In this document: positions 18,147-55,157 of the stretch, piece by piece
How the letters are laid out: each line of letters begins with the position of its first letter
Position numbering within the stretch: position 1 is the first letter of the stretch
DNA from: Naegleria gruberi
Taxonomy: Eukaryota
Reading direction: 5' to 3' (one strand)
DNA: 64,000 nt
NCBI GenBank assembly: GCA_000004985.1
Contig: GG738906.1
Made by a program: the position numbers and the translations under genes
Notes under the pieces: model-generated
Told to the model about the DNA's origin: nothing
The model's input: the letters and a program-made list of their open reading frames with translations, nothing else
The model's database searches: none

Positions 18147-19670
18147 ATGCAACAAACACAAAACGCTCCAGAGGAAGGCGACAATTCGGAAGGTAGAACA
18201 ATGACTGCCGACGAAAAGAAAAAACAAAGAGAAGCTAAAAAGATGGAAAAGAAACAAGCAAAGGAACAAAAAGGTGGATTGTCTAAAGAGGAAAGAAAGA
18301 AATTGTTTGAAACAAACGAAAATAATAAGAGACAAGAACGATTAAAAGCCAAAGAAGAAGCAGAAAATATCACCACTCCGACAATGCCATCAAATGTTAC
18401 GAATAATAGTACCAACCCAACAACAAGTCAACAAACAAACGCTTCCGATCAAAGGTTGAGAGAAGAAAACGAGAGATTAAAGAAGGAATTGTTACAAAGA
18501 GACAAACTTTATCTAGATTTGAAGAAGAAATATCAGGAAAATAGAATTTCTTCTCACTTGCCAGAATATCAACCTCCAAAACAAACAGAAATCAACACTG
18601 GAAAACTTCATCCTCAAGTGATTCAACTCGGAATTCAATATGCAAGTGGTCAAATTACTGGATGCAATGCTAGAACTCTTGCTATGTTCACTGTTTTGAA
18701 ACAGCTTGTTAATGATACTGAAATTCCTGAAGATAAGCAATTCAGTAGATGTTTGGATCCGCTTGTTTCTTCTGTAATTGACCACTTAAAACAATGTAGA
18801 CCAATGAGCGTGGGAATGAAAAATGCTTTGAGAAGATTTAAATATTGTTTGCATCAAATTGACAAGGAATCTTACATTCGTACACATCAACAGAGAAAAG
18901 AAGCTCTTTCAGAATATGTTGATAGATATATTGAAGAACGTATTTCAGTTCCTGAAAAAGAAATTGTTAAGAAAGGAGTTAATGGTATTAAGGATGGTGA
19001 TACAATTTTAACATATGCACTAAGTGAGGTTTTAGAAAAAATGATTATAGAGGCTGCTCAAAGCAAGAAAATATCTGTAATTGTTGTTGATAGCAGACCA
19101 AAGAATGAAGGTAAAGAGCTCGTAAAACGTTTGACAAGAGCTGGTGTGAAATGTTCGATTGTTCTCGTTAATGCTGTTACATATGTCATGAAGGATGTTT
19201 CAAAGGTGTTCTTGGGTGCAAATTCAATTTTGTCCAATGGTAATGTTTATTCACGTGTAGGTACAGCTGTTGTTGCCATGACTGCAAAGGCTTTTAATAT
19301 TCCAGTGGTTGTTTGTTGTGAGACATACAAATTTAGTGCTCATTCTCAATTGGATTCCATTACAACTAACGAGTTGGGAGATCCATATGATTTAGTAGAT
19401 TTAAGTACAACACCTCAAAGACACCACACTGTTAATTATTTGTCTAGTAATGAAATTGGACAATTGGAGGTTGAAGGAGTAACCAAGTTTGATGACAAGG
19501 AAACAGTGTATAACATGGAAAATTTTGAATCTATTCCTAACCTTCATATCGTAAATTTAACTTATGACCTTACTCCTTGTCATTATGTAGATATGGTTTT
19601 GTGTGAATTTGGTGCTATTCCACCAACATCTGTTTCAGTCATTTTGAGAGAGTACGTCGATTATCAATAA
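18147..19670 (+). CDS. EIF2B4: Translation initiation factor eIF-2B subunit delta
   Basis: The C-terminal domain belongs to the eIF2B alpha/beta/delta family (IVLVNAVTYVMKDVSKVFLGANSILSNGNVYSRVGTAVVAMTAKAFNIPVVVCCETYKFS). A K/E-rich N-terminal extension is typical of the delta subunit. Confidence 0.8.
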   Translation: MQQTQNAPEEGDNSEGRTMTADEKKKQREAKKMEKKQAKEQKGGLSKEERKKLFETNENNKRQERLKAKEEAENITTPTMPSNVTNNSTNPTTSQQTNASDQRLREENERLKKELLQRDKLYLDLKKKYQENRISSHLPEYQPPKQTEINTGKLHPQVIQLGIQYASGQITGCNARTLAMFTVLKQLVNDTEIPEDKQFSRCLDPLVSSVIDHLKQCRPMSVGMKNALRRFKYCLHQIDKESYIRTHQQRKEALSEYVDRYIEERISVPEKEIVKKGVNGIKDGDTILTYALSEVLEKMIIEAAQSKKISVIVVDSRPKNEGKELVKRLTRAGVKCSIVLVNAVTYVMKDVSKVFLGANSILSNGNVYSRVGTAVVAMTAKAFNIPVVVCCETYKFSAHSQLDSITTNELGDPYDLVDLSTTPQRHHTVNYLSSNEIGQLEVEGVTKFDDKETVYNMENFESIPNLHIVNLTYDLTPCHYVDMVLCEFGAIPPTSVSVILREYVDYQ

Positions 19671-20856: not shown

Positions 20857-22528
20857 ATGCCATTATCAAATAAGCGGGGATCAGGCACCCTTGATTACTA
20901 TGTTTCGATGGCCACAAAAGGAGGAGAGGATGCAAAGCTTGAAAGTAGTAAAATTTTTCTTGAACTTTCGGAGGAGAGTAAGTATGAAATTAACATTTAC
21001 TAATTTAAAATAGAGAAATTTGCACTTGTTGTTGATGCAGTAGATGCCCTCTTTCATCTAATTGAAACAAGTGAAAATGTGGAAATTATTAAAAATTCGT
21101 TGATGACAATGGTAAATCTTTGCAAAGAAAAGGCTCAGGTTGATTACTTGATTGCTGAAAAAAATTGTTTCAGACGTCTGGCATCTGCAGTATCTTTCCA
21201 TAATGTTCCTTGTCAAATTCTTGCAACAAGATGCATTGGATTATTAGCAAAATATCCTACAAGTGGAATCAGATTTGTAAGTGATGGAGGGTTGTTACCT
21301 ATATTATGTTCCCTTAAACCAGACCAAAATACGGAAATGTTAATAGAAATTTGTAAAACTCTAGCTACATGTAATATAAGAGGTGAGTTTTAAACAATTT
21401 AAAGGTTTTTAACAATATGTAGGAGAATGTGCAACAAGAATTGTGGAAGTTTGGGGATTGGAGTCTCTGGGAGAGCTAATTTCAAAATTTATCAGAGGAA
21501 AGGATTCAAAATCAGTAAAGATACTAACCCACCTTTCGTTGGTATTGTCTAACCTATCTCGTTTTAAAAGTATTGGGGCGAACATGTTTAAAAATGAAAA
21601 ACTTCAATTAATTAATATTCTAACAAATATTTTGAGTGCATCTCATGTCACTATGGAAGCTAAGAGGGCCGCAGCAAAAACTTGCTACAATCTTGTAAAT
21701 AATCAATATATTAATGACAGTATTGTTGTAGATGAAGTACTGATATCACTATTAATGAGAAAGCATTTTGAAACGGATTATCTGTTCAAACATACTGTTG
21801 TAAAGACTCTCGATTGTGCTGTGAAGGAATGTATTGAATTGAAGAAGGAGGAATTAATGATTAGGATTATAAAAAAGTATCAAAGTTTGAGCTTTACAGA
21901 ATGGATAATCAACTCTATTGGATGTGATAACGTTCAAATTATAGTACTAAAAGTTTTTATTGCAAGTAAGTGGGCAGTACATGATAATGAAAATATGTTC
22001 AGTAATACCTTTCTCCACTCTCTATTAGTTTGTATGCGAGAAACTATTAGTACAACAGTAAGGAGGGTTTGTGATGAAGTTCTCTATCAGTTTTGCAATA
22101 TGGAAAGGTTTAAAAAAGAGATTATTGAATATAGAGGTGTAGATATTCTAATTCCCCAATTGACCTTTAAGGAAATCAAATCAAAGCTTTGGGGAGTTAA
22201 GGCATTAGCTAGGATAATGACAAATAGAGATTATGCTTTGAGTTTCGTAAAAAATTATGGTATTGTTAAACCAGCTGTAAAATGTTTCATGATAACTCCA
22301 GCAAAATCACTAGAATATCAAGATATTTTTATGAGTACCCTACTAATAATATCTGCTATTTCTGAAACAACAGAATTTAGAGAACATTTTCTTCAATCTG
22401 GTGCTATCAACAAACTACTGGATATATTGGAAAGAGCCGATCGATCTGAGCATAGGACATTAATCTATTGCCTTAATATTATTATTGCGTATGTAAATAG
22501 TGGTAAGTTATTATTGGAAAATCATTAA
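20857..22528 (+). CDS. Armadillo/HEAT-repeat protein. Three exons, join(20857..20977,21014..21382,21423..22528).
   Basis: Introns are 36 and 40 nt (GTAAGT...TAG and GTGAGT...TAG). ARM-like repeats are visible (LIAEKNCFRRLASAVSFHNVPCQILATRCIGLLAKYP, GGLLPILCSLK). A GGTAAGT donor-like site lies 27 nt before the stop, so a longer spliced isoform reaching the downstream ORF is possible. Confidence 0.6.
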
Positions 22529-22844
22529 AAATTTAACTTGAATGATAGCAAACTACGAAAGCTCTGGTAATGCAAACTTGAAAATTGTAAGTGAGAAGAG
22601 ATTATGTAGGGTTATTGAAAATGTTACCTCAAACGATTTTTCATTATCTGGACGAGTGGTCTTGTTAATTCAAGCCTACTCACAGCATTGTATGTTTTGA
22701 TTTTGATTTTTTGAATTAATTATTTAATTAGCCAATTCTCCAATATTCGATTTTTGGAATATACTCTACAACAAAGCTCTTGAGGTAATTAGATGCAATG
22801 AAGATTACAACAGCTATTTATATCAGAGAATAACTTGTTTTCAA

Positions 22845-24062
22845 ATGCTTACATCTATTCTTTGTAAACCATATATTTTTTCAAATTTAAACCCAGAAAT
22901 AATCATTAATCATTATCTCAATATTTTTTCAAAGAGTAATCCTTTGAGTTATTTGAAAGAAACATCAGCTAAAGGACTTCTCTACTTTTGTAAGCAAACA
23001 CCGTCAGTATTTAGATCTATTCTTTTGGAATATGAGGAAGATTTAGTAGCTAGTCATAAGGAATTTTCATTTGGAAACAATACTTGTTTCTCCAATGTTG
23101 GGTCATTCAGAGAATTTTTAACTAGATATCTTATCTTTTTTAAAAAGGAAAAGGCAAAGAAAATAAGACGATATTTAATTTTGACTAGAATTCAGAGATT
23201 TCTATTGTTTCTTCTAGCATTTGTTAGAAGTAAGAATGAAAATGCACAATTTGTGGACACGCTAATTAGTCAAGCTAGTTCAAAATATTTGAAGATGGAA
23301 GGGGAAAAGAGAACTATAAATCCTTTGATGTATATACCTCTTGCCCACAAGCATCACTATGATATTGACACAGCTTTGATTGGACAAACCATACCATTCC
23401 AACCATCCAGCAATGATACACAAAAACGATTGAAAGAATTGGTTCTCCAAAAGTACTCTAATACTACCCCTTCAAATAGTCCCCTTAATAGAAGAAGATC
23501 AAATTCAGGATTCAGTTTTGGAACAAGAAGTTCTTCGATGTGCTCGACCCATAGTCCAGTTATTCTCATGGGTGACAAGTTTAGCTCAAATAATTGTATT
23601 ACGGATGAATCAATATTCTCACTAGGCAGTACTGGAGAGTTTGGCTTAACGGTCCAAAGTAATATCAAAAAAACTCAAAAGAAAGATTCAAGTCATTCCC
23701 CTACACCTACTGTATCGCTATTAGAAATGTGGCAAGATGAATACGGAACTAAAGAGATTCTTCGGGAAACAAACTTTAAGAGTTTTAGAACTGGTTCAAG
23801 CTCTTCAACATTGCCACATATAAACTCGATGAGTACATCGACAACACCAATCCCTCACCAAACCAACAACAACAGATCACATGCTCAACGGCCAGCATCT
23901 GCTCTCTCATACAGCAAGCCAAGGAAAGAAGTGACCGATTTGAATCCAGAATTGGAACGAAGATATCTGAACAAGAGCAAAGAAATGGGAATCATTAAGC
24001 AGGGTACTACTTTCCCTTTCGAAAATCTTCTTTCTTCCAAATACAAGCAGATATTAAAATAG
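22845..24062 (+). CDS. Hypothetical protein with a Ser-rich C-terminus. This is the source of the fragment duplicated at 33893..33990.
   Basis: The ORF is 405 aa with no recognisable domain. The C-terminal half is S/T/N-rich (RRRSNSGFSFGTRSSSMCSTHSP). It may have additional 5' exons or be fused with the upstream ARM gene. Confidence 0.4.
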   Translation: MLTSILCKPYIFSNLNPEIIINHYLNIFSKSNPLSYLKETSAKGLLYFCKQTPSVFRSILLEYEEDLVASHKEFSFGNNTCFSNVGSFREFLTRYLIFFKKEKAKKIRRYLILTRIQRFLLFLLAFVRSKNENAQFVDTLISQASSKYLKMEGEKRTINPLMYIPLAHKHHYDIDTALIGQTIPFQPSSNDTQKRLKELVLQKYSNTTPSNSPLNRRRSNSGFSFGTRSSSMCSTHSPVILMGDKFSSNNCITDESIFSLGSTGEFGLTVQSNIKKTQKKDSSHSPTPTVSLLEMWQDEYGTKEILRETNFKSFRTGSSSSTLPHINSMSTSTTPIPHQTNNNRSHAQRPASALSYSKPRKEVTDLNPELERRYLNKSKEMGIIKQGTTFPFENLLSSKYKQILK

Positions 24063-27100: not shown

Positions 27101-28894
27101 TTCCACCAGAGGCTGGGTAAGTTGTTTGCTTTCTTTTAAATTTCAATTATTAAGAGTTCGTATTGAGGAGGTGGAGGAAATGATTGCAGCAAAGACAAAT
27201 GATATTAAAATATTAACAGGAAGAATTTCAAGATTAGAGAATCTACTCAAGGAAAAAGATGTAATGCTACATGAGGCTATGAAGACTGTAAGTACATAAT
27301 TACTAATTAAGAACTTAACATTTTCCAGTTTGATGAGATGAAGTCAAGACTAGATCAAGAAATTGAGGAGCACAAACAAGCAGCAAATGAAATGCATATT
27401 CAGCTCATCTCAGAACGAGACGAGTGCCAAAAACTTAAGAGACAACTCTCTGAACATGCAATGAAAAAGCAGCTCACTCTCCAACAAAAAAAGATGGAAA
27501 AACTCAACCAACAAAAGGAAAATCTTGAACAAACTGTTAAAAACATTTCCAACAAGCTAGTCAAGGCAGAAGAAAAAATAATGGCTTTCGAACTCCACAA
27601 AACTAATGTGGATAAATTTGAAATAGAGAGACTCAAAAGAAAAGAGGAAAAACTCCAAGAAAAGCTCCAAGACCAACTCAAAACCAGCATCAACCAAAAT
27701 ACGCACTACCAAGTTGTAACCGAGAATCAAAAACTGAAAAGCAAGTTAGAAGAACTTTCAAAGAAAGAAGAAATTTTAAACAAAGATAGGCAGGAATGGA
27801 CCAAAAAGTTAGAGGAAATAGGAAAGGAACTTGATGAAACAAAAAAGGGTAGACAAGAAAAAGCAAACAAGATCATTGACCTTCAAAAAGAAATACAGGT
27901 CCATATCAAAGCAAAAAAAGCCCTAAAAATTGAACTTGAAAAACTACAAAAGGAGAATGAAGAGCTCTCAAAAACAAAAGTTGGATTCCACGAAGAAAAG
28001 AAATTGCATAGCCAACAAGTATCTAAATTAATGAAAAAGTATAGTGAACTTCAAGAGGAAAAAAACAGAATATCTGATGAACTAGGAAATGTAAAGAAAG
28101 AACTTTCAGAGCTTTCAAGTGATAAAGAAATAGAGAAGAGACATGCAATTGAAAAGGTGAGAGTTGAATATCAGAAAATGTTGAATAATGCCAATTCTGA
28201 AATTGATAGATTGAGAAAAGAAAAAGAAGTAGTTGAATTGGATAATAATGAAAACAAAGAGTTCCTCGAGAAGAAACAACAAGAAATGTATGGAAACATC
28301 TCCAAAGCACTCAAGGAGAAAGATGACGCTCTTAAAGAAAAAAACAAGCTTGTAGGTGAAACAAAGGAGCTTCGAAAAGAAAATGAGGAGCTAAAGAATG
28401 CTCTCACTACACTGCAGCAAGAAATATCTGAAATAAGTAAGGAGAAAGATTTAGAAAGAAAAAGAGCAGTAGAAAAAGTTAAACAAGAATACCAAAAACA
28501 ATTACTTCAAACTAATTCAGAAATTGATAAGATGAAAAAAGAAAAAGAAGTAAGTGAACAAGAGGAACAAAAATCATCTGCCAAACTGAAAAGTCAACAA
28601 TATTTTGAAAGAAAACAACAGGAAATGTCTTTAAATTTATCCAAAGCTCTTAGAGAAAAGGAGGAAGCTATCAAGGAGAGAAACAAGCTTCTCAATGAAG
28701 CTAAGGAGTTGAGAACCGAAAATGAAGAATTGAAAAACGAGTTGAATGCATTTGATCCAGAATTTTTCGAAGACATTGAAGATCTAAAATATAATTATGT
28801 TCAAGCATTAGAAGAGAACAAATTGTTCAGGAAGAAACTCCAAGAATTAAATGTTTCAATAGAGGAGGATATTCCCAAAAGAAGAGGAAGATAA
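24117..28894 (+). CDS. CEP290: CEP290 homolog (centrosomal/ciliary transition-zone coiled-coil protein). Multi-exon with at least six exons, including 24117..~24215, ~24265..~24410, ~24461..24871, 24912..27116, ~27153..~27289 and ~27331..28894.
   Basis: In-frame joins occur across short GTAAGT/GTAGGT...AG introns of 40-50 nt. The protein is almost entirely heptad coiled coil. The C-terminal motif ELKNELNAFDPEFFEDIEDLKYNYVQALEENKLFRKKLQEL matches the conserved CEP290 C-terminus (ELENFDPSFFEEIEDLKYNYKEEVKKNILLEEKVKKL). At about 1500 aa it is shorter than the ~2480-aa human protein. Confidence 0.7.
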
Positions 28895-28909
28895 TCATTA
28901 CCAATTAAA

Positions 28910-29992
28910 TTACTTTCTTTCTATCTCTATTTTAATATCCCAAAATGCCTTAATAAGTGAATCAAGAGCTTTCTTTTCTCTATCGTTCAATCTATCGATA
29001 AGAGGTTTGAATTTTTCTGGATGTTTCTTATAGACTTTAAAGTGTGTCAAAATTTCTTTAAATACATGGGCAACGAGATCATCATCAAAAACCTGCATTT
29101 CCTTCTCTTTTTCCTTTTTGTGGTCCTCTCTTTCTCTGTCTTTGAGTCTTTTAGTCATTTTGTCTGGGGTGTAATCTCTAAATAAAATATCAAGAAATAG
29201 AGATTGGTCCGATTCTGATAACTTTTCACATAATTGCAGTAATTGTTGAGGATTTTGGGTGTAGTGAATTAAATTACCCTCAAAAATTTGCAGAGCCTCT
29301 TTCACAGAATCTGAAGCATTTTCTAATAACTTTTTTGTTACACTCTCATCACCAATATTATCCAAATCATCTTCCAGATCATCTTCAGTCAAGTTTTTCC
29401 ATATTTTAGAATTAATATCACTCCCAATCATGGCTGTATTTTTTACAGCTTCTATAACTTGAGGATCATTGTTAAAATATTTAATTGCATCATCAGGTTC
29501 TTTTTGTAATAAATCCATCAATGAAGACAACTCGTTTGGAAGTAATTTTGATATGAAATGGTCGGCTGCGTTCTTGTCTGTAATCATGGATTGTCCTGAT
29601 TTTAATAATTCAATATAAATTTGTTTCAGTTTAGATTTGGTCACATTTTGTTTGTCTTGTGTGAGAGTATTTAAATTTTTGAATTCTTGAAGTAATTGTT
29701 GTTTAAATTCTTCATCATCTGATAAATCATCAAATACATCATCCGAGTCATCGGAATCATTTAAAAATCCTTTTGAAGAAAGATCCTTAGCAAGTTTTTG
29801 TGTAAGTAAATCAACAGTTTTAGTGTCAATTTCGGAAATTTCTTCATCATCAAATTTTAGAGTGCTACTTGTTGATTTTGATCCTAAAGATTTTTTTTCT
29901 GCGTTTGAATCTCTATTCTTCTCCTTGTTGAGTGATTCCATCAGATTTTGCATAAAAGAATCCGAAGGATTGTTGTTCAACCTTTTGCTCAT
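28910..29992 (-). CDS. Acidic D/E/S-rich protein of unknown function
   Basis: The ORF is 360 aa and includes DSDDSDDVFDDLSDDEEFKQQLL. No recognisable catalytic motifs are present. It shares a ~100-bp divergent promoter with the next gene. Confidence 0.4.
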   Translation of the reverse strand: MSKRLNNNPSDSFMQNLMESLNKEKNRDSNAEKKSLGSKSTSSTLKFDDEEISEIDTKTVDLLTQKLAKDLSSKGFLNDSDDSDDVFDDLSDDEEFKQQLLQEFKNLNTLTQDKQNVTKSKLKQIYIELLKSGQSMITDKNAADHFISKLLPNELSSLMDLLQKEPDDAIKYFNNDPQVIEAVKNTAMIGSDINSKIWKNLTEDDLEDDLDNIGDESVTKKLLENASDSVKEALQIFEGNLIHYTQNPQQLLQLCEKLSESDQSLFLDILFRDYTPDKMTKRLKDREREDHKKEKEKEMQVFDDDLVAHVFKEILTHFKVYKKHPEKFKPLIDRLNDREKKALDSLIKAFWDIKIEIERK

Positions 29993-30091: not shown

Positions 30092-33000
30092 ATGAGCTTA
30101 GAAGCCTCCCTACTCTCTAAGAAGATTACTCTTTCTCCGAGAGTAAATTCTGATGAGAAGGATTTCTTTTCGGAAGATTATGGAGAGGAATTCGAAAAGC
30201 CAATTATTATGCAAGAGGAGATATTATTGGATGGGAATAATAGTAATTTTTTTGATTTTAAACCAAATCAAGAAGAGGATCAAGTTCTAATTCCAAAATA
30301 TAAAAAAAACAGAAATGCAATACCAGGCAAATCAATTGAGTTACAAGGAGTAGATAATAGTAAACTAGTCAGGGGTAAGGATACCATTGAAAAAATTAAA
30401 CGAAAGCACAATATTGCAAAAAATACTTCTCCCCTTAGGCCTAGAGTCACTTCTCAAACACCTGATCCTATTCCCCAACAAAATTCAATTGTACATGTCC
30501 CATTGAGTGAATTTTCAGCAACACGGTTAGAAGTTCATTTGCCACAGTCACTAAATCAAAAAACTAAACCTGTCAAACATCTTATAAATAACCAAGAAGA
30601 AATGATTAGTATTGAGGTTGTTAAAGATGTTTATGCATCCTATATGAGTGAATCAAATTACGAAAACGATGATGAATATGTTATTAATATTACTAAGGAC
30701 GATAGTTCCACAGTTTCAAGTGGTAGTGAAGTTGGAGGTGACAACTTTGAAATAATCAAAAGCAAAGTGTCAATCCAACCAGATTATTCGACTGTAAAAA
30801 TGGAAACAAAACAGATTATGGAGGAGGAAATTAAAACTATGAAAAATATGAAAAAAAAGGTACCCTCAATTGCAACTCAACAATTGGATTTTTTTAAACG
30901 AAAGAGCAGAGATCTTTTTACAGACAACTTTAAAGACTCATCATTCAAGAAAAAGAATTATTCCCAGGTAAAGAGCAAGGTAAATTCAATGTTATATACT
31001 TCTGACGAGGAAAACGAGGATATAGATATAGAAAGAAGAGATGACTCCCAACTTTCAATTAAACTGCCTTTTCTTGACAAGAAGAAAAAGAAGAGAAAGA
31101 CAAAGACAGATTTGACTCCAGAAAAAGTACCAAAACCAGAACTCACAACAACATTCAGTGTTCAATCATTTTCAGAGTTTGAAGAAGTTGATTTTTTCGA
31201 TGGAAACGAGGATATGGGAATTGTTGACGATGTCATTAAAGCAGCAAGTGCTCGAGGGTGTTCCAATCTCCCAAAAACAAAAATCCCAAAAAAATATCAC
31301 ATCATTGAAACAACCCCAATAGCTACAAGAGATGAATTAGACAAGAATTCACAATATAATATCGAGAAAAAACTATGGGAAACAACTTTATTTCCCTCCA
31401 ACAAACCAACATCTAGAATTGAGGTTGTTCAACTGGCTAGAACTTTTGAACAGATGCTTTCTGAATTGAAAGAAAAGAAGAAGGATGAGGCATCAGAAGT
31501 TAACGAGGAAATAACGATATTGGATGTGATAGCATCAGAAATATCAAGACAAATAAGTGGACAATGTGCTGAAAGAGGTATTCTTCTGGATAAACTCGTT
31601 TCGAGATTCAAAAGATTAACTTCAAAATCAACAAAGATAAGCAAAGAAGCTGCTAGTAAACTAGAAGATATACAAGCTAGAGAAAAGCAAGTTAATTCTA
31701 TGGTTGATTTTTATACAGATTTGGCTAAATCGAAAGAAGACCAATTAGCAAAGAAGGAAGAAGAAATAATAGAACTATTGGATCAAATTGAGCGCCTTAA
31801 ATCACAACTAAGACAAACAAAAAAGGGAATACATGCAATGACAAGTGAATATTTTCAAGAAAGAATTCGACAAGAAATGGTATCCAAAAGTTTGCAGGTA
31901 ACTCCAAGAGAAAACCCTAACTATATCATGGAACCAATTAAGATACCAACACCAAGAATAATAGAAGAAGAACTGAAAGAAAGTCTTTCTCATTCAAATA
32001 TTGAAAAGAAAAAAATTCAAACTGAAGAAAGATCTGTAAATACCCCAACAATTGAGGGAATCAGTTTGGATAGCATTAAGGAGATTGAGAGATTTAATTC
32101 TCTATTTGTTAAAACCCAAGTTGAAGAGGATGAAGTAGATATTTTCCAAAGGCACAAACCTAAACCAAAACCAGAACCAAAACCACCTCAAGAAGTACTC
32201 AAAGCAAAAACAAAAGAAAAGGAAACTCAAACAGCCCCCGTTATCATGAAAAAACCAGAAGCTGAAAAACCCGTTCATTCACCTCGTACTGTTTATGAAA
32301 CAAAGTACAAACAAGGATCCATTAGAGACAAAGCAGTGCAGGTAATAACAGCAATTAAACCACCTACACCTCCACCTCCACCTGTAGTTGTTGTTCAACC
32401 AAAACCTGTTCAAATACTCCCTCCTCAACCTCCACCTGTTGTTGTTGCAAGTGTATCAACCCAAACATTCCTTGCAGGAGAGGTAATTAAACCCTCTACA
32501 GAACGTCAGAAATCTGAATCTGAAAGAAATCCATCTCCAACAACTATCAGATCTGTTTCACCTGTTATCTCCCAAATGAGGTCAAGTTTGGACAAAAATG
32601 AGGTTATCAAGAAGAGAATAGATAGTAACGTAAATTCGCAACCAGAATCAAGAAATAGTAAGAGAGATAGCATCGACTTTTTAAAGTACAAGATGAAACT
32701 TGTAAAGCCAGAAGATATCTATAGTCTTTTCAAGGAAATCTTAAGCTCTGATAAGAGTGTGAGAAAACAAACATTGAGATGGATGAACAAGATGATTTTG
32801 GATATTTTTTTGGAATTATCAGCTAGTGATTTTTTATTCCATAATAATGAGCTAGTTCTGATTAGAAAATTTGTTTATGATTTCTTCCTTCTAAAATTTG
32901 GTTTACCCACAATTGCTTTAAATGTAAGTTAAATATTTTAGTCACATTCACAAAGGATTAATTAGCATTTGGCAGAGTTTTTGATTAATATTAAAAGCAA

Positions 33001-33892
33001 ATTTAGGGAGAGTATTAGAGTTCAAATGTTTACGCAGTATTGTGTATTATCTGAATGGATTGGTAAAAATATTTCACCAGAATATACAATTCCTACTCTC
33101 CAATTTTACTTGTAAGTATACATGATGCTTTCTACAAACTAACTTGCAAACAGAAAGGTATTAAATTTTACCAGAGGTGTTCTCAACAAGAGAGCTTTAC
33201 ACGAGTTAGAAGATGGTTCGCTTTTTGTTTCACTTTCTTTTGTACATAATTTAATGGAACGAATGCAACTACCTCTTCAAATGGACGAATTGCAAGAATT
33301 TATTATCCAAATCAAGGAACAATCTGAAGATAATTTGTAAGTTTTATGAATAGTTTTATTGATTATTATATATAGCGTGTATTTTGATTATTTGCTTAAA
33401 TTATTGATTGAGTTATATCACAATAAGGTGATTATTAAAAAACGAAAATTGGCACCAGCAGCACATGACTCTATTGGAAACAAACAGGCTGCAAAACCAC
33501 AAAACCAACAAATATCGATAACAATTTCTTCCTTTAAGAAAATGCTTAAAACTTATTTCAAAAAACTCTACATAGTACGAGATAGAATTGCAGGTCCAAA
33601 CGAATTTATTACAAAGAATGAAAAAATATCAAAGTCCAATCTATTAGAAGTTTATCACCAAACAACAACTATTTTCCATGAATTGATTGAAAAACGAGTG
33701 AAAGAAGAAGAAAGATTCAGAGTATTACAATCACACAATAATCTTTGGTCAACTTTGGAAAGACAAAACTTAGAGGATGGCATGAATTCATATAGAATGT
33801 TTGTCATAGATGCACTTTCCAATATGCACGATGAAACCTTCAAAGTGTTTGCGATTATGATTCAAAAACTTGTTCCTGTTGTTGGTAAATAA
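30092..33892 (+). CDS. Large multi-exon gene (>1150 aa) for a protein with a K/E/P-rich low-complexity body and a conserved C-terminal domain. Exons: 30092..32929, ~32983..~33117, ~33165..~33346, ~33389..33892.
   Basis: The long ORF 30092..32932 runs into a GTAAGT donor. Three further exons join in frame through introns of 40-55 nt (one has an ACTAAC branch site) and end at the TAA at 33890. The body contains PKPKPEPKPP and PPTPPPPPVVVVQPKPVQILPPQPPPVVV. The family could not be assigned. Confidence 0.5.
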
Positions 33893-33990
33893 ATAATCCT
33901 TTGAGTTATTTGAAACATCAGCTGGGGACTTCTCTACGTCAGTATTTAGATATCTATTCTTTTGGAATATGAGGAAGATTTAGTATGAGT
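33893..33990. repeat. Degenerate ~100-bp duplicate of coding segment 22939..23050 from gene 22845..24062
   Basis: The copy reads aataatcctttgagttatttgaaa-catcagctggggacttctctac-gtcagtatttagatatctattcttttggaatatgaggaagatttagta. The source reads agtaatcctttgagttatttgaaagaaacatcagctaaaggacttctctacttttgtaagcaaacaccgtcagtatttagatctattcttttggaatatgaggaagatttagta. They are about 90% identical with a 17-nt deletion and small indels. The copy is non-coding and sits in the 3' spacer directly after the stop of gene 30092..33892. Confidence 0.6.
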
Positions 33991-34016
33991 TGTTTCATCA
34001 AAATACAATTTTTTAT

Positions 34017-36797
34017 TTAGATTTTACATTTGCTAACAGAAACAAGTTGCTTAACAACCTTCTTTCCGAGAGTAGTGACAGTATCCTTATTTCTAATTGG
34101 ACATTTTCCTGCAAGCTTCAATTTTCTTACCAACTTGAGAATTCGTTTAGGAAGGTGCTTCTTTGGATCAAACTTTCTGCCCAATCTTCTCTTTAATCTG
34201 AGGACACGTCTCAACATTCTCTTGATTCTCTTAACAGTCTTCTTCTTTACAACAACAGCGGAAGCTCTCTTGATAGCAATGGTCAACCTACGTGGGGTTG
34301 GTTTCAATGCTCTCTTCAAAGTCTTCTTTTGGGCCTTCTTGGCAGCTTTGTTGGCAGACTTCTTAGCCTTCTTGACAAGTTTGTTAATCTTTTTAGCTTT
34401 CTTGTTGACTCTATTGCAAGCTCTTTTGGCAGCTCTTCTAGCACGTCTAGCATTCTTTTTAGCAAGTTTATAAGCACGAATATCACTCTTCTTACCAGTC
34501 TTTTCAGCACGTCTCAAGAGTTTCTTGACAAGTTTTCTGGCCTTTCTAGCTTGCTTCTTCAATCTTCTAGCAATTCTTCTCAATTTTCTGATAAATCTCT
34601 TTTGCTTCTTGATGGCAGCACGTTTCTTCTTCAAAACAGCCTTCTTAGCTTGCTTGGCAGCCTTCTTTGCCTTCTTAATAGCAGCACGTCTCTTCTTTTG
34701 TTGAGAACGTTTAAGTGCCTTCTTGGCCTTTCTAACTCTTCTCTTTTGCTTTCTTTCAGAACGCTTGATTGACTTCTTTTGAGACTTTTTAACTACACGC
34801 TTCTTTTGTTGTTTCTTTTGAGAATTCTTCTTAGCAGCTCTTCTGGCAAGTCTAGCAGCTTTTCTAGCAATTCTTCTTTGTCTGACAAGTCTTCTCTTAG
34901 CCTCTCTTCTAGCACGTCTAGCAGCTCTTTCAGCATTTCTTCTACGAAGTCTAGCAGCTCTCTTGGCTTGTCTAGCACGTCTTCTAGCAATTCTTATGGC
35001 ACGTCTAGAAGCTTGATCACCAGTTGGCTTTTGTTTCTTTTGTTTCTTTTGTTTCTTTTGAGCCTTCTTGGCGGCCTTCTTAGCCTTCTTTTCAGCCTTT
35101 TTAATCTTCTTTGTCCATTTCTTGGTCTTCTTATCATGGAGTTTTTCAAGTTTAGCAATAACCTTAGCAATCTTCTTACCAATCTTATCACCAGTTTGAA
35201 CTTGATCAGCAACACAAGCTCTGAAAGCCAATGGATGGAGTCTGGCAGAAATACCAGCCTTCTTACAAGTCTTGGTGGCCTTCTTCACAGCTTTCTTAGT
35301 GGCCTTCTTTGGTTTAGTATTTCTTTCAATTTGTCTATTAATATGATCATGTAAAACACCAGTAGCTGATTTTTCAATAAAAGCCTTACTGACACACAAA
35401 CCAGATTCAAATTCAACATCCTTTGGTGAGTCAACAATCAAAGAAATATGACCAAATGAACCCATAGATTGTTTCCATGAAGGAGCTCTATACCAAGTAG
35501 CAGTCAAGTGAACATCATTGAGAGAAACAATCATTGAAGTTTGAGAAACTCTCTTGAATGAAGCACCATTACCCAAGTCATTGACCTTACCTACTTCAAC
35601 AACAGCTTCCTTACCATCAACATAGAATTTGTCATCTTCAACATTATATTCAACAATTCTATCGTTATTGAGTTTAACAGCAACAGCAGTATTGACACTG
35701 ACAGCACCCCATCTACCAGTTCTAGAGTGAGCAACAAATTTACCATCTTTAGTAGCAGCCAAAACGTAATCACCCTTTCCGTAGAAATCGTATGCACGTC
35801 CTCTGAAGTCGACATAATGTGGATCTCCTTCTGATTTACACTTTACAAATACTTGCTTCTTCTTAATCTTCTTTTCCAATTTCTTTTGCTTCTTATCAGC
35901 AGCCTTTTCAACCTTCTTAATTACCTTGGCAATAGTTTCACCAATTTTAGTACCAGATTGAATTTGATCAGTGACGCAAGCCTTGTAAGCTCTGGCATGG
36001 ACAGATTTATGAATACCAACCTTCTTACAGGTTTCCTTAGCTTTTTCAAGTTGTTCTGGTGTAGCCTTTTTTGGTTTCTTACTTCTGACAATTTGTCTTG
36101 AAATATGATCATGCAACAAACCATTTGCAGACTTGTTAACATCATTCTTGTTAACACACATGCCTTCAGTGAATTTAACAGTACGTGGAGCTTCAACAAC
36201 CAAAGAAATATGTCCAAATGAACCCATAGATTGTTTCCAACCTGGATTTCTATACCAGGTAGCAATTAATGAAGCTTGATTCTTAGCAACAACAGTTAAT
36301 TGAGTTGCAGAATTACGGGTAGCAGAAGCTTCACCACCCAAAGTAACTTTTTCACCAACACCAATATTCATTTCCTTTCCATCAAGATAGAACTTATCAT
36401 CTTCAACATTGTATTCAATAGTGTTCATATTATTAACACGAACAGCAATAGCAGTATTGACACTAACTCTTCCCCATTGGCCAGTTCTAGAGTGAGCAAT
36501 AAAATTACCATCTTCAGTTGAAGCTAAAATATAATCTCCCTTTCCATAATGATCATAATAAACACCACCAAAGGTAGTAAGATGTGGATCTCCTTCAGAT
36601 TTACATTTTTGAATAGATGTTTCAACAATTGGTTGACTTGCTGAAATTTTGGTAGCTCTTTTTCCAATAATTCTTCGTAAAACTTGACCAATTTTACCAC
36701 CTCTTCTAGATTCAACTTGGTTTGATGAGAAGATAACTAACAAAACCAAGGAAACAAGAAGGAGAGCGGTGACAGTTTTAAAGTTGGCACCTCTCAT
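34017..36797 (-). CDS. Secreted or membrane protein with two tandem GDPH/VWD-like domains and a ~430-aa polybasic K/R/A-rich C-terminal tail
   Basis: The ORF is 926 aa. The N-terminus is a hydrophobic signal (MRGANFKTVTALLLVSLVLLVIFSS). Repeat 1 starts CKSEGDPHLTTFGGVYYDHYGKGDYILASTEDGNFIAHSRTGQWG. Repeat 2 starts CKSEGDPHYVDFRGRAYDFYGKGDYVLAATKDGKFVAHSRTGRWG. Each repeat is followed by a conserved TCKK[VA]GI...ACV[TA]DQ[IV]Q[ST]G.KIG..IAKVI linker. The tail is almost pure K/R/A, for example RRARQAKRAARLRRRNAERAARRARREAKRR and KKAKKAAKQAKKAVLKKKRAAIKKQKRFIRKLRRIARRLKK. Confidence 0.6.
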   Translation of the reverse strand: MRGANFKTVTALLLVSLVLLVIFSSNQVESRRGGKIGQVLRRIIGKRATKISASQPIVETSIQKCKSEGDPHLTTFGGVYYDHYGKGDYILASTEDGNFIAHSRTGQWGRVSVNTAIAVRVNNMNTIEYNVEDDKFYLDGKEMNIGVGEKVTLGGEASATRNSATQLTVVAKNQASLIATWYRNPGWKQSMGSFGHISLVVEAPRTVKFTEGMCVNKNDVNKSANGLLHDHISRQIVRSKKPKKATPEQLEKAKETCKKVGIHKSVHARAYKACVTDQIQSGTKIGETIAKVIKKVEKAADKKQKKLEKKIKKKQVFVKCKSEGDPHYVDFRGRAYDFYGKGDYVLAATKDGKFVAHSRTGRWGAVSVNTAVAVKLNNDRIVEYNVEDDKFYVDGKEAVVEVGKVNDLGNGASFKRVSQTSMIVSLNDVHLTATWYRAPSWKQSMGSFGHISLIVDSPKDVEFESGLCVSKAFIEKSATGVLHDHINRQIERNTKPKKATKKAVKKATKTCKKAGISARLHPLAFRACVADQVQTGDKIGKKIAKVIAKLEKLHDKKTKKWTKKIKKAEKKAKKAAKKAQKKQKKQKKQKPTGDQASRRAIRIARRRARQAKRAARLRRRNAERAARRARREAKRRLVRQRRIARKAARLARRAAKKNSQKKQQKKRVVKKSQKKSIKRSERKQKRRVRKAKKALKRSQQKKRRAAIKKAKKAAKQAKKAVLKKKRAAIKKQKRFIRKLRRIARRLKKQARKARKLVKKLLRRAEKTGKKSDIRAYKLAKKNARRARRAAKRACNRVNKKAKKINKLVKKAKKSANKAAKKAQKKTLKRALKPTPRRLTIAIKRASAVVVKKKTVKRIKRMLRRVLRLKRRLGRKFDPKKHLPKRILKLVRKLKLAGKCPIRNKDTVTTLGKKVVKQLVSVSKCKI

Positions 36798-37182: not shown

Positions 37183-38199
37183 TTAAAAGTCATCATCCAA
37201 TCTGAAAACCTTATCCTTCTTTGAGGACATGATATTTGCCTTGGCATATTCACCAACTTTCTTTTCAAAGAAGTTTGTCTTACCACTAACAGAAATAATG
37301 TTCATCCAATCGAATGGATTTGGAGAATTGTAAATCTTATCATAACCAAGGGATACCAAAAGTCTATCAGCAACCATTTCAATGTATTGTTGCATTAAAC
37401 GAGAGTTCATACCAATCAAATCTACTGGCAAACTTTCACAAATGAATTCCTTTTCAATTTCAACAGCTTCAGAAACTAGTGAGTGAACAACTTGTTGCGG
37501 CAATTTGGTAAACTTCAATGTGGAATATAATAAACAGGCAAAATCAGTGTGTAATCCTTCATCACGGGAGATTAATTCATTGGAGAATGCCAAACCAGGC
37601 ATGAGACCACGTTTCTTCAACCAAAAAATGGAACAGAAAGAACCAGAGAAGAAAATACCTTCAACACAAGCAAAGGCCAATAAACGTTCGGCAAATAAAT
37701 TCTCATTATTGATCCATTTCATAGCCCAACGTGCCTTCTTTTGTACAGATGGAACAGTATCAATGGCATTGAACAAACGATGTCTTTCTCTTTGATCCTT
37801 TATCAAAGTTTCAATGAGTGTACTATACATTTCAGCATGGATATTTTCAATAGCAATTTGGAAACCGTAGAAACATCTCGCTTCTGGTATTTGTACCTCA
37901 GCCATAAATTGTTGGCACAAATTTTCATTGACAATACCGTCGGACGCAGCAAAGAAAGCTAAAACACTCTTGATAAAGTGTTGTTCGTTTGGTGTCAAGG
38001 TGGTCCATTGTGTAATATCAGTGTGAAGATCAACTTCTTCAGCAGTCCAGAAGGATGCCATGGCCTTCTTATACATTTCCCAAATCTTTGGATATTCGAG
38101 AGGGAATAAGACAAAACGGTGTGGATTTTCCTTCAAGAGGGCTTCTTCCTTTTCTAATTGCTTGTATTGGTCAAATAATTTGGGATCCATAAAATTCAT
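37183..38199 (-). CDS. RRM2: Ribonucleoside-diphosphate reductase small subunit (R2)
   Basis: The ORF is 338 aa. It contains [30 protein letters not shown], an iron-ligand region ([38 protein letters not shown]) and a C-terminal FRLDDDF, all typical of R2. Confidence 0.9.
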
Positions 38200-43094: not shown

Positions 43095-44333
43095 ATGAGT
43101 GAACCAGAAAAGAAGAAATTAAAACCAAACGATAATTCAGCAGTGGCATCATCAATTGTGTCTGCATTATCATCATCAATTGCAGCATCATCAACAAAAG
43201 TAAATACAAGAAATGCCTTGCAAAAAACTGAAGATTTGGAACAAATTAGAAAGACTCTTTTACTTTCACTAGTTCCATCCATGAACGATAAAAGTGACAT
43301 TTATAATACTAAACAAATTATATCACTAGGAGATAAAAATTCTAATATAATTAGAGAAGGTGATTTGGTTGTTTTCTTTATTAATCATGATATTATGAAG
43401 GCCGAAGTAATTAAAAAAGGACATACTTTTGATTGTAGATTTGGATCCTTCTTACATGAAAATATTATTGGTAAACCTTTTGGATCTAAAATTTATAGTC
43501 ATGCAGAAAAACGCCCAACAAGAAGGAAGAAGGAAGATACTACAATGGATAATGCAGATAAGAAGCCATTTGTTTATGTTCTCAAACCAACACCACATTT
43601 GTGGACTCTAGTTTTGAAACATAGAACTCAAATTTTATATCATGCTGATATCAGTTTAATTCTTACACATTTTAAACTTCGTCCAGGAAGTGTAGTTATT
43701 GAGGCAGGAACTGGTAGTGGTTCTCTTTCAACAAGTATTTCTAGAGCTATTATGCCTAATGGACATCTTTTCACTTTTGAATATCACAAGGAAAGATATT
43801 TACATGCCATGAATGAATTTAAGAATAATGGTTTATATAATATTACAATAACTAATGGAGATGTTTGTCAAAATGGATTTACTCCAAACACTACAACAAC
43901 TCCAATCATATTGAGTGATACTTTGAGACCAAAATATGAACCATCTCAAATTCTTGGAGAAGACAAGTCAGGCACAGTGGACGGTGTCTTTTTGGATTTA
44001 CCAAAACCTTGGCTCTGTATTCCAAATGTTTTTAGACTATTAAGAGTTGGTGGTAAATTCTGTGGATTTAGTCCTTGTATTGAACAAATTCAAGAAACTG
44101 CAAATGCTCTTAGACAATTTGATTTTGTAGAAATTAAATGTGTTGAATGCCTAGTCAAGGAATATATGAGTAATAATGTTGAGGTTTCCACAGTTGACCA
44201 TTACTTTAAGAAATCTGATACTACAACTCAACAAACATCAACCACAGAGAAGAGATTATTCAGTGCAGTTCCTGAAATGAAAGGACACACCGGTTATTTG
44301 ATTTTTGCAACAAAATTCCAACTTAAAGAATAA
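43095..44333 (+). CDS. TRM61: tRNA (adenine58-N1)-methyltransferase catalytic subunit TRM61/GCD14
   Basis: The SAM-binding motif is present as VIEAGTGSGSLSTSISRAI (compare TRM61 VLEAGTGSGSFS). The N-terminal domain (GDLVVFFINHDIMKAEVIKKG) and the overall length of 412 aa also fit. Confidence 0.8.
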   Translation: MSEPEKKKLKPNDNSAVASSIVSALSSSIAASSTKVNTRNALQKTEDLEQIRKTLLLSLVPSMNDKSDIYNTKQIISLGDKNSNIIREGDLVVFFINHDIMKAEVIKKGHTFDCRFGSFLHENIIGKPFGSKIYSHAEKRPTRRKKEDTTMDNADKKPFVYVLKPTPHLWTLVLKHRTQILYHADISLILTHFKLRPGSVVIEAGTGSGSLSTSISRAIMPNGHLFTFEYHKERYLHAMNEFKNNGLYNITITNGDVCQNGFTPNTTTTPIILSDTLRPKYEPSQILGEDKSGTVDGVFLDLPKPWLCIPNVFRLLRVGGKFCGFSPCIEQIQETANALRQFDFVEIKCVECLVKEYMSNNVEVSTVDHYFKKSDTTTQQTSTTEKRLFSAVPEMKGHTGYLIFATKFQLKE

Positions 44334-48925: not shown

Positions 48926-49330
48926 TTACTCCAATTTACTGTCTGACTTGACACTACTCTCAATGGCAGAAATATTTGCAATAGTTTCATCCTTTGGTGC
49001 AATTCCAATAATTCTTTCCAAATCCCTGTCTCTTTGGTCTTCTTCATTATACTCCGACATAATTTCCTTAGCTATTGCTTCTCTTTGTTTCTAATCAATA
49101 TGATAATAAATAAATCTGCAATACAAATAATTACATACTCTCTTTTCGGACCAAGTTGAGAAGTTTTGAATAAAGTTCTTAGTTTCCCATCCAACAGCAG
49201 CAAAACATGCTACAGTAAAACCGACCATAGCAGTGGTAGCAGTTTTCCTAAAATATTTTGTATATTATTCAGCATATTAACACCTTTTTACCTACCAAAT
49301 AGCATTAAATACTTTATCAAGCTTTGACAT
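48926..49330 (-). CDS. Small (~110 aa) single-pass membrane protein, probably three exons, identity unknown
   Basis: The minus strand reads ATG MSKLDKVFNAIW, then intron GTAGGT...TTTTAG, then KTATTAMVGFTVACFAAVGWETKNFIQNFSTWSEKR, then intron GTATGT...AG, then EAIAKEIMSEYNEEDQRDRDLERIIGIAPKDETIANISAIESSVKSDSKLE*. The exact acceptor of intron 2 is ambiguous. Confidence 0.3.
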
Positions 49331-49534
49331 TTTTTAATAAAATTAATTACATTTATTAATTTTATTAAAAAACGTTAAATAATTGTGAAAGTAACTTGCT
49401 GTTTTAATGAATAATACTAACCTTTGCATTCATGAAGTTAGTAGAATCAACAATAAACTAAATATTTTCAACAGGTTTAAAATTGAATCAAATAAATTGA
49501 TGATACAATTCCGATAAAACAATCAGAAAAAATA

Positions 49535-54800: not shown

Positions 54801-55150
54801 TATATCATGAATTGGTAATGACAACAAAAGAATATATTCTCATTTCTACTGCCGTAGAGGGTAGTTGGTTAGCTGAATTAGCTCCAACCTTCTTCTCCGT
54901 AAAGATTCCTCACCAAACAAGAGAAGCAAAAAGAAAGGAAATCAAACAAAAAATCGAGCAAGAATATTTGGATAGTAATAATTTGGAGACGACCTCAATA
55001 ACTCCAAGTGCCTCAACACAAAGAAGAAAATCTTCCAATATTGTTACGCCTGGTGTTAGTTCAACAAGAAGACCTTCAAGCAATGTTTCCACAACACGAG
55101 ATTCGCTAGAAGAAAGAAGAAAAACAACACCTAGAAGGATTGGTTTATAA
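51854..55150 (+). CDS. DHX38: Pre-mRNA splicing DEAH-box helicase PRP16/DHX38
   Basis: The ORF is 1098 aa. The N-terminus is R/S/D-rich. The helicase core ([85 protein letters not shown]) and the C-terminal OB/HA2 region ([22 protein letters not shown]..., [10 protein letters not shown], ending ...PRRIGL) align block for block with human DHX38. The ATG lies only 21 bp after the upstream gene's stop. Confidence 0.85.
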
Positions 55151-55157
55151 AGAAAAT

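What the first reader, a model, noticed from the sequence alone, without database searches (positions are those of the whole stretch)
33893..33990. Degenerate copy of a coding fragment from a gene 11 kb away, inserted between two convergent gene ends
About 100 bp immediately after the TAA of gene 30092..33892 is ~90% identical to codons ~30-70 of gene 22845..24062 (SNPLSYLKETSAKGLLYFCKQTPSVFRSILLEYEEDLVA). It carries a 17-nt deletion and small indels and has no ORF context, so it is a non-functional gene fragment. In a genome this compact, such debris marks a recent segmental duplication or repair-mediated insertion at this junction, right beside the unusual VWD/polybasic gene. It could also reveal that both loci carry a fragment of a dispersed repeat.
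Basis: seen in the sequence. Interest (0 to 1): 0.5.

Follow-up and report, generated by a model that had tools for sequence, protein, structure and literature searches.

The report
Short gene scrap patched between genes
A 92-base scrap copied, with copying errors, from an exon of a gene 11 kb away sits in the tiny gap between two tail-to-tail genes of the amoeba Naegleria gruberi; it is most likely the scar of an old DNA-break repair, which is a known and ordinary kind of genomic debris.

Summary
Window 33894..33985 (92 nt) matches 22937..23048 (112 nt) on the same strand, with E about 1e-19 to 1e-21, and it is the only dispersed repeat in the 64-kb window. The window is Naegleria gruberi NEG-M nuclear DNA.

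The donor is conserved coding sequence in the last exon of a multi-exon armadillo-like gene (about 20908..24062) that the public gene model splices wrongly. The copy sits 1 nt after the stop codon of gene 30092..33892. It fills 92 of the 124 nt that separate that gene from the convergent VWD/polybasic gene. Three of the four other clear convergent pairs in the window overlap or lie 7-15 nt apart.

The copy is five colinear exact blocks (22, 12, 12, 15 and 34 nt). They are joined by a 4-nt slippage deletion, a complex AAA>GG change, a 17-nt deletion and a 2-nt back-slip, and there is no independent point substitution. It has no ORF, no target-site duplication, no terminal inverted repeat, no poly(A) tail and no RNA-structure signal.

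Best reading: one young, error-prone, synthesis-dependent templated insertion ("filler DNA") at a repaired break or collapsed fork. The genome-wide copy number and the empty site could not be checked with the available collections. Interest is low.

The parts
33894..33985 (+). The inserted fragment (92 nt), a patchwork copy of the donor. Exact blocks are 33894-33915 (22 nt), 33912-33923 (12 nt, sharing GAAA with the first block), GG at 33924-33925, 33926-33937 (12 nt), 33937-33951 (15 nt, sharing C with the previous block) and 33952-33985 (34 nt).
   Evidence: alignment and exact-block list. One search shows stops in all six frames.
22937..23048 (+). Donor segment (112 nt). It encodes (S)NPLSYLKETSAKGLLYFCKQTPSVFRSILLEYEEDLV in the last exon of the armadillo-like gene, and it is intact and in frame.
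   Evidence: Conservation of this stretch in P0004 and P0005 is shown.
20908..24062 (+). Donor gene, an armadillo/HEAT-like repeat protein with small introns. Its last exon is 22732..24062. The start and the first intron are approximate. The public model P0003 skips 21967..23217, which includes the donor segment.
   Evidence: frames and splice sites. One search shows that the 829-aa paralogue P0004 aligns along the reconstructed gene. One search gives P(443 stop-free codons) = 6e-16.
30092..33892 (+). Upstream convergent gene (1225 aa after removing introns 32924..32965, 33112..33153 and 33337..33375). The stop TAA at 33890..33892 lies within an AATAAA at 33888..33893.
   Evidence: frame-preserving GTAAGT...AG introns. 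One search shows AATAAA at the stop. One search gives a weak match to axonemal dynein light chain.
33893..34016 (.). The whole convergent intergenic spacer (124 nt). Without the fragment it would be 32 nt.
   Evidence: Comparison with other convergent pairs in the window: -4, 7, 15 and 138 nt.
33986..34016 (.). Residual native spacer (31 nt) between the fragment and the stop of the VWD gene. It contains that gene's AATAAA on the minus strand.
   Evidence: One search shows its similarity to the donor region is no better than chance (97% of random windows score at least as high).
34017..36797 (-). Downstream convergent gene, a VWD-domain protein with a polybasic tail. It is identical to N. gruberi XP_002671385.
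   Evidence: VWD, E = 2.7e-12. One search gives an exact match to the N. gruberi protein.

Best explanation
The fragment is a scar of DNA repair. A chromosome break or collapsed replication fork occurred in the roughly 32-nt spacer between two convergent N. gruberi genes. It was healed by a short burst of DNA synthesis that used an exon 11 kb upstream on the same chromosome and strand as a template.

The polymerase copied about 112 nt with poor processivity. It slipped forward at a GAAA/GAAA repeat (-4 nt), scrambled AAA into GG, jumped 17 nt across a 1-nt microhomology, and slipped back 2 nt at the centre of a small palindrome (TAGATCTA became TAGATATCTA). The 92-nt product was then joined to the other end.

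The donor stayed intact. The patch carries no function and survives because a convergent 3'-3' spacer tolerates insertions.

What is shown: the homology, the block structure, the donor being conserved coding sequence, the lack of transposon or retrocopy hallmarks, and the compact context. What is inferred: the break, the single-event origin, the polymerase behaviour and the neutrality.
For: - The homology is far beyond chance and unique in the window.
- The donor is genuine, conserved coding sequence that remains in frame, so the direction is gene to spacer.
- The copy consists of five colinear exact blocks. Three of the four junctions sit at 4-, 1- and 2-nt repeats or microhomologies and the fourth is a complex delins. 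There is no independent point substitution. With 4 indel events against 1 or 2 substitution events, gradual neutral decay is unlikely. P is 0.002-0.006 if indels make up 15% of events, an assumed ratio.
- Similarity ends abruptly at both edges. The flanks are unrelated, and there is no target-site duplication, terminal inverted repeat or poly(A) tail.
- Three other convergent gene pairs in the window overlap or lie 7-15 nt apart, so a 32-nt ancestral spacer is typical and 124 nt is an expansion.
- There is no ORF, no RNA-structure signal (z = 0.24 and -0.70) and no Rfam match.
- Patchwork templated insertions and 'patches' from distant loci without target-site duplication or poly(A) are documented outcomes of break repair (PMC12426944, read; PMC5110952, read; PMC2943611 and PMC2567098, seen only as search listings).
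- A donor only 11 kb away in cis is improbable if donors were drawn at random from a roughly 41-Mb genome. The genome size is from my own knowledge. The argument is weakened by the fact that only in-window donors could be seen.
Against: - No empty-site allele or sister-strain sequence was available. The pre-insertion sequence, the junction microhomologies and the single-event origin are therefore inferred.
- The insertion is longer (92 nt) and its template farther away (11 kb) than classical polymerase-theta insertions, which are generally under 25 bp and templated from the break flanks (PMC12426944). The specific enzyme is unknown, and I found no literature on POLQ in Naegleria.
- Genome-wide copy number was not checked.
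- The indel-to-substitution argument uses an assumed background ratio.
- Non-function is argued from absence of signals, not from expression data.
Confidence: 0.62

Rival explanations
1. An RNA-derived patch. A piece of the donor gene's mRNA or nascent transcript was reverse-transcribed, with template jumps, and the cDNA was used to fill the break. This would be equivalent to a human 'class 2 templated sequence insertion'.
For: The donor is an exon of a gene that is presumably transcribed, and the copy is in the sense orientation. There is no target-site duplication or poly(A) tail. Class 2 TSIPs have exactly these features and are enriched for transcribed donors (PMC5110952). Reverse transcriptases are prone to jumps and indels (own knowledge).
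Against: The donor segment contains no intron, so there is no splice signature either way. The 17-nt gap is not bounded by GT..AG. An RNA intermediate gives no reason for the donor to lie only 11 kb away in cis, unless a nascent transcript was used. No reverse-transcriptase source was examined.
Confidence: 0.12
2. Remnant of a larger recent duplication of the donor region. The duplicate landed at this junction and was then whittled down by deletions to 92 nt.
For: The internal differences are mostly deletions, which suits a compact genome with deletion bias.
Against: It requires two large flanking deletions plus four internal indels without a single independent point substitution. No residual similarity is seen in either flank. 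It is less parsimonious than a single short patch.
Confidence: 0.1
3. A functional element. The fragment lies in the 3' UTR or read-through of the two convergent genes. Read-through from the VWD gene would make RNA antisense to the donor mRNA, with perfect stretches of 34 and 22 nt, and could feed RNAi regulation of the armadillo-like gene. Alternatively the fragment acts as a spacer that separates two poly(A) sites.
For: Exact blocks of 34 and 22 nt are long enough for siRNA targeting. Both genes carry AATAAA at or beside their stop codons, so transcripts end in or near the fragment. The presence of RNAi genes in N. gruberi is from my own knowledge.
Against: There is no structure signal and no Rfam family. 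The AATAAA positions suggest both transcripts may be cleaved before covering much of the fragment (inference). It is a single instance with no conservation data. Frameshifting indels show no sequence maintenance beyond youth.
Confidence: 0.05
4. Assembly or cloning artefact. A chimeric or low-quality read placed donor-like sequence in the spacer.
For: The indel-rich differences superficially resemble poor read tails. Read-level data could not be inspected.
Against: The fragment is embedded in the middle of a 286-kb scaffold, between two intact gene ends with unique sequence on both sides. A clean 17-nt deletion and 34- and 22-nt perfect blocks are not typical base-calling errors. A consensus assembly would outvote a single chimeric clone (inference).
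Confidence: 0.04
5. Both loci carry a member of a short dispersed repeat or mobile element (for example a MITE) that happens to lie inside the exon.
For: Genome-wide copy number could not be checked. The donor gene has at least one paralogue in the genome.
Against: The donor stretch is conserved protein-coding sequence in the paralogue and in metagenomic relatives. There are only two copies in 64 kb, and no terminal inverted repeats or target-site duplication. The fragment's blocks encode the local gene's residues, not the paralogue's. Exact-word scans of metagenome and viral collections gave only chance hits.
Confidence: 0.03

Closest known systems
Filler DNA / synthesis-dependent templated insertions at repaired double-strand breaks (SD-MMEJ, polymerase-theta-mediated end joining)
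   Same: The inserted sequence is copied from an intact template elsewhere. It has a patchwork of colinear segments joined at short microhomologies with occasional untemplated bases, and no target-site duplication (PMC12426944; PMC2943611, listing).
   Different: Classical events are generally under 25 bp and templated from within the break's own flanks. This one is 92 nt, templated 11 kb away, and all segments come from one donor in order. The enzyme is unknown in Naegleria.
Class 2 templated sequence insertion polymorphisms (TSIPs) of the human genome
   Same: A short 'patch' from a distant, transcribed donor that stays intact. There is no target-site duplication, no poly(A) tract and no poly(A)-signal-dependent end, and the features are consistent with break repair (PMC5110952).
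   Different: Human TSIs are thought to be RNA-derived and their donors are scattered over the chromosomes. Here the donor is cis-proximal and no RNA signature can be read. The internal indel patchwork is not a described hallmark of TSIPs.
Microhomology-mediated break-induced replication / fork stalling and template switching (MMBIR/FoSTeS) templated insertions
   Same: Short templated segments copied from nearby (kilobase-scale) sequence on the same chromosome by a low-processivity, slippage-prone replisome (own knowledge of the model; PMC5110952, mentions template switching and break-induced repair as alternatives).
   Different: MMBIR is usually invoked for complex rearrangements with copy-number change. 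Here there is a simple insertion with no other rearrangement visible in 64 kb.
NUMT / organelle or extrachromosomal DNA capture at breaks
   Same: Insertion of unrelated DNA as a filler in a repaired break, tolerated in non-coding DNA (PMC2567098, listing).
   Different: The donor is nuclear and cis-linked. A captured fragment would be an exact copy, whereas this one carries synthesis-type slippage errors.

Membership tests
Templated insertion / filler DNA from break repair (broad sense) | The inserted sequence matches a donor elsewhere in the genome, and the donor remains intact | tested here: met
   88 of 92 bases are identical to 22937..23048, E about 1e-19 to 1e-21. The donor is in frame within a 443-codon open exon.
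Templated insertion / filler DNA from break repair (broad sense) | No target-site duplication, no terminal inverted repeats, no poly(A) tail | tested here: met
   The flanks GGTAAATAAA and TGAGTTGTTTC are unrelated to each other. The ends TAATCC... and ...TTAGTA are not inverted repeats. There is no A-tract at either end.
Templated insertion / filler DNA from break repair (broad sense) | Microhomology or untemplated bases at the junctions | tested here: inconclusive
   The internal junctions show 4-, 1- and 2-nt microhomology and one complex AAA>GG change. The outer junctions cannot be scored because the pre-insertion sequence is unknown.
Templated insertion / filler DNA from break repair (broad sense) | An empty (pre-insertion) site exists in an allele, strain or sister species | not testable with these tools
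   No eukaryotic genome collection was available. The look-up of encoding contigs had no N. gruberi record. Metagenome scans gave only chance hits.
Classical polymerase-theta (TMEJ) templated insertion | Small size (generally under 25 bp) and a template within the sequences flanking the break | tested here: not met
   The fragment is 92 nt and the template lies 10,957 nt upstream. The criterion is from PMC12426944.
Transposable element / MITE / dispersed repeat | Multiple copies with terminal inverted repeats and/or target-site duplications | tested here: not met
   There are only two copies in the window, and one is conserved coding sequence. No terminal inverted repeat or target-site duplication was found. 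Genome-wide count was not testable.
Processed pseudogene / retrocopy (LINE-mediated, class 1 TSIP) | Target-site duplication of at least 5 bp, poly(A) tract, and a poly(A) signal upstream of the tract | tested here: not met
   None of these is present at 33894..33985. The criteria are from PMC5110952.
Segmental duplication | A long (kilobase-scale) duplicated block whose similarity extends into the flanks and whose divergence is dominated by substitutions | tested here: not met
   Similarity is confined to 92/112 nt and the flanks are at chance level. The differences are 4 indel events against one substitution cluster.
Structured or known non-coding RNA | Match to an Rfam family, or folding energy below shuffled controls | tested here: not met
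   No Rfam match at E <= 1. Folding z-scores are 0.24 on the plus strand and -0.70 on the minus strand.

The most novel reading that the evidence does not exclude
The patch has been co-opted. Read-through transcription of the VWD/polybasic gene across the fragment would give RNA antisense to the armadillo-like gene's exon, with perfect 34- and 22-nt stretches. This would link expression of the two genes through RNAi. More broadly, N. gruberi may routinely heal breaks in its ultra-short convergent spacers with cis-templated exon patches, which would be a measurable source of new 3'-UTR sequence in a compact genome.
Probability: 0.05. Interest if true: 0.5.

Novelty: new member of a known kind. 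Interest (0 to 1): 0.15.

Why it matters
On its own the finding matters little. It is a single, probably neutral repair scar of a known general type.

Its modest value has three parts:
- It is a clean natural example of a long (92-nt), colinear, slippage-riddled templated patch copied from 11 kb away in a heterolobosean. I found no description of DNA-repair outcomes in that lineage, though I looked only briefly (one search found no paper linking Naegleria with polymerase theta).
- It gives a polymorphism candidate for N. gruberi strain comparison.
- Checking it exposed errors in the public gene models on both sides. The donor exon is spliced out of the public model, and the 3' exons of the upstream gene are missing.

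A genome-wide census of such patches and their donor distances could say which repair pathway operates in Naegleria.

Tried and rejected
- **Fetching N. gruberi loci or independent assemblies.** I tried look-up of encoding contigs with three exact N. gruberi proteins, and no record was found. Copy number, haplotypes and read support therefore could not be checked.
- **Exact-word scans.** I scanned metagenome and viral contigs with the 28-nt and 22-nt shared blocks. There were 0 hits for the 28-mer. There were two hits for the 22-mer in unrelated contigs, where only the 22-mer matches, so these are chance.
- **A possible second partial copy.** By eye, the right flank TGAGTTGTTTCATCA resembles the start of the fragment (TGAGTTATTTGAAACATCA). 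This could have meant a second partial copy or a priming homology. Local alignment against the donor region scored below the mean of random windows, and 97% of random windows scored at least as high, so I rejected the idea as chance.
- **A second template for the odd junctions.** I searched for GCTGGGGAC, CTCTACGTCAG and the outer junction words elsewhere in the window and found none.
- **Outgroup test of the ancestral spacer.** I looked for homologues of the upstream gene's C-terminal 354 aa. The search returned no hit at all, not even an annotated N. gruberi protein. The spliced 1225-aa product is also not in the collection.
- **Spliced-RNA origin of the 17-nt gap.** The donor contains GTAAGC...CAG nearby, but removing it would not give the observed junction. 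I rejected this from the sequence itself.
- **The paralogue P0004 as donor.** Its residues at the copied positions differ (NLLSHLK and ELLIRHERSIV, against NPLSYLK and SILLEYEEDLV), so I rejected it.
- **Literature on polymerase theta in Naegleria.** Nothing was found.

Full report
**Identity of the window.** Two proteins encoded in the window are exact matches to Naegleria gruberi RefSeq proteins on a 286,411-nt scaffold. They are the ribonucleotide reductase small chain (37183..38199, minus strand, XP_002671386) and the VWD/polybasic protein (34017..36797, minus strand, XP_002671385). The window has 33% G+C. Genes are densely packed and carry introns of about 40 nt with GTAAGT donors. Several products resemble flagellar proteins, which fits an amoeboflagellate.

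**The observation.** Reading both loci and aligning them shows that 33894..33985 (92 nt) is colinear with 22937..23048 (112 nt) on the same strand. 88 of the 92 bases are identical. BLASTN gives E = 9e-22 for the fragment against the window and 3.5e-19 in a window-against-window search. In that search this is the only non-local repeat pair down to E = 0.05. All other hits are repeats internal to single genes or one palindrome.

The copy starts 1 nt after the TAA at 33890..33892, and all six reading frames are closed.

**The donor.** Three-frame translation with splice sites shows one armadillo-like gene running from about 20908 to 24062 with small introns. Its last exon is 22732..24062, which is 443 open codons. 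The chance of that many open codons is 6e-16 at this base composition.

An exhaustive HMMER search found an 829-aa N. gruberi paralogue on another scaffold (P0004 = XP_002681873, 56% identity) and metagenomic relatives. In the alignment P0004 runs along the whole reconstructed gene. P0004 and P0005 cover and conserve the donor stretch: SNPLSYLKETSAKGLLYFCK aligns with SNLLSHLKSVSAKGLLEFCK and SNHLSYLKIHASKGFSKFCK.

The public model for the local gene (P0003, 385 aa) splices out 21967..23217, including the donor. That is almost certainly an annotation error. The fragment's blocks encode the local gene's residues and not the paralogue's, so the local gene is the donor.

**The target site.** Gene 30092..33892 becomes a single 1225-aa reading frame once three frame-preserving GTAAGT...AG introns are removed: 32924..32965, 33112..33153 and 33337..33375. 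Its last exon is a 172-177-codon open frame, which is very unlikely by chance at this base composition. These 3' exons are nonetheless missing from annotated proteomes.

The spacer to the convergent VWD gene is 124 nt (33893..34016), and the fragment fills 92 of them. Other convergent pairs in the window overlap by 4 nt (12094/12091) or lie 15 nt (28894/28910), 7 nt (55150/55158) or 138 nt (60671/60810) apart. A 32-nt ancestral spacer would therefore be typical. Both genes have AATAAA at or beside the stop codon.

**Anatomy of the copy.** The fragment is five exact blocks of 22, 12, 12, 15 and 34 nt in donor order. The junctions are:
- GAAAGAAA collapsed to GAAA, a 4-nt slippage.
- GCTAAAGGAC changed to GCTGGGGAC, a complex change.
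- A 17-nt deletion (TTTTGTAAGCAAACACC) across a 1-nt microhomology.
- A 2-nt AT back-slip at the centre of the palindrome TAGATCTA, giving TAGATATCTA.

There is no independent point substitution in about 88 aligned bases. Similarity stops abruptly at both ends. The flanks show nothing above chance, and my by-eye resemblance between the right flank and the start of the fragment failed a randomisation test. There is no target-site duplication, terminal inverted repeat or poly(A) tract. There is also no RNA-structure signal (z = 0.24 and -0.70) and no Rfam match.

**Interpretation.** The excess of slippage-type indels over substitutions argues that the differences arose during the copying event and not by slow decay. 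P is 0.002-0.006 if indels were 15% of neutral events, which is an assumed ratio. The zero-substitution count also makes the event young.

The most economical account has three steps. A break or fork collapse occurred in the convergent spacer. It was followed by invasion or annealing of one end at the exon 11 kb upstream. Low-processivity synthesis with repeated dissociation and re-annealing on the same template then produced a patch that was joined to the other end.

This is the known class of filler-DNA or templated-insertion repair products. Reviews describe such insertions as patchworks of segments joined at microhomologies (PMC12426944). 'Class 2' templated sequence insertions in humans share the intact distant donor and the lack of target-site duplication or poly(A) (PMC5110952).

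The fragment does not meet the narrow definition of a classical polymerase-theta insertion, which is under 25 bp and templated from the break's own flanks. I therefore file it only under the broad class and leave the enzyme open. A convergent 3'-3' spacer is also where an insertion is least likely to be harmful, which explains its survival (inference).

**Rivals.** These are set out with confidences in the report sections:
- an RNA/cDNA-derived patch (0.12);
- a pruned larger duplication (0.10);
- a functional 3'-UTR or antisense element (0.05);
- an assembly artefact (0.04);
- a dispersed repeat (0.03).

None could be excluded by direct test, because no eukaryotic genome, read or expression data were reachable.

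**Verdict.** 'Segmental duplication' and 'dispersed repeat' are not supported. It is a new instance of a known kind of event, with low interest.

Noticed in passing
window 21967..23217 (gene about 20908..24062, + strand): The public N. gruberi gene model (P0003, 385 aa) treats about 1.25 kb of continuous, conserved coding sequence as an intron. The real gene appears to be an armadillo-like protein of about 1000 aa with several small introns. It has an 829-aa paralogue (XP_002681873) on another scaffold.
   Followed up: partly
window 32924..33892 (+ strand): The last three exons of gene 30092..33892 follow introns 32924..32965, 33112..33153 and 33337..33375. They seem absent from every annotated proteome searched. 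A 354-aa query from them found no protein at all, and the spliced 1225-aa product is not on record.
   Followed up: partly
stop codons across the window, e.g. 7439..7441, 14502..14504, 19668..19670, 33890..33892, 44331..44333, 51830..51832, 55158..55160: AATAAA overlaps the stop codon (aaTAAa) at 7 of 30 long-ORF ends, against roughly 4% expected from base composition. It lies 2 nt after the start of the stop codon in the VWD gene. This suggests that poly(A) signals are fused to stop codons and that 3' UTRs are very short in this genome.
   Followed up: partly
window 12091..12094, 28894..28910, 55150..55158: Convergent genes overlap by 4 nt or are separated by only 7-15 nt. Their 3' ends or poly(A) sites must therefore lie inside the neighbouring gene's coding sequence.
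   Followed up: no
window 34017..36797 (- strand); internal repeat 35097..35844 against 35859..36609: The VWD-domain protein has two GDPH-containing VWD modules, produced by a tandem internal duplication of about 750 nt at 70% identity. It also has a C-terminal tail of about 400 aa made almost entirely of K, R and A, with further short internal repeats at 34324..35111.
   Followed up: no
window 49323..49379: A 57-nt AT-rich near-palindrome (84% self-complementary, E = 6e-10) lies in the spacer upstream of gene 49535..51832. Its function is unknown.
   Followed up: no
window 28193..28389 against 28514..28728 (+ strand): An internal direct repeat of about 200 nt (67% identity) lies within gene 27338..28894. 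That gene has a weak match to the sperm-tail/NYD-SP28 C-terminal domain.
   Followed up: no
L001 1863..1884 and L002 862..883: Two near-identical metagenome contigs share an exact 22-mer (TAATCCTTTGAGTTATTTGAAA) with the fragment, but nothing beyond it. This is a chance match and not a relative.
   Followed up: yes
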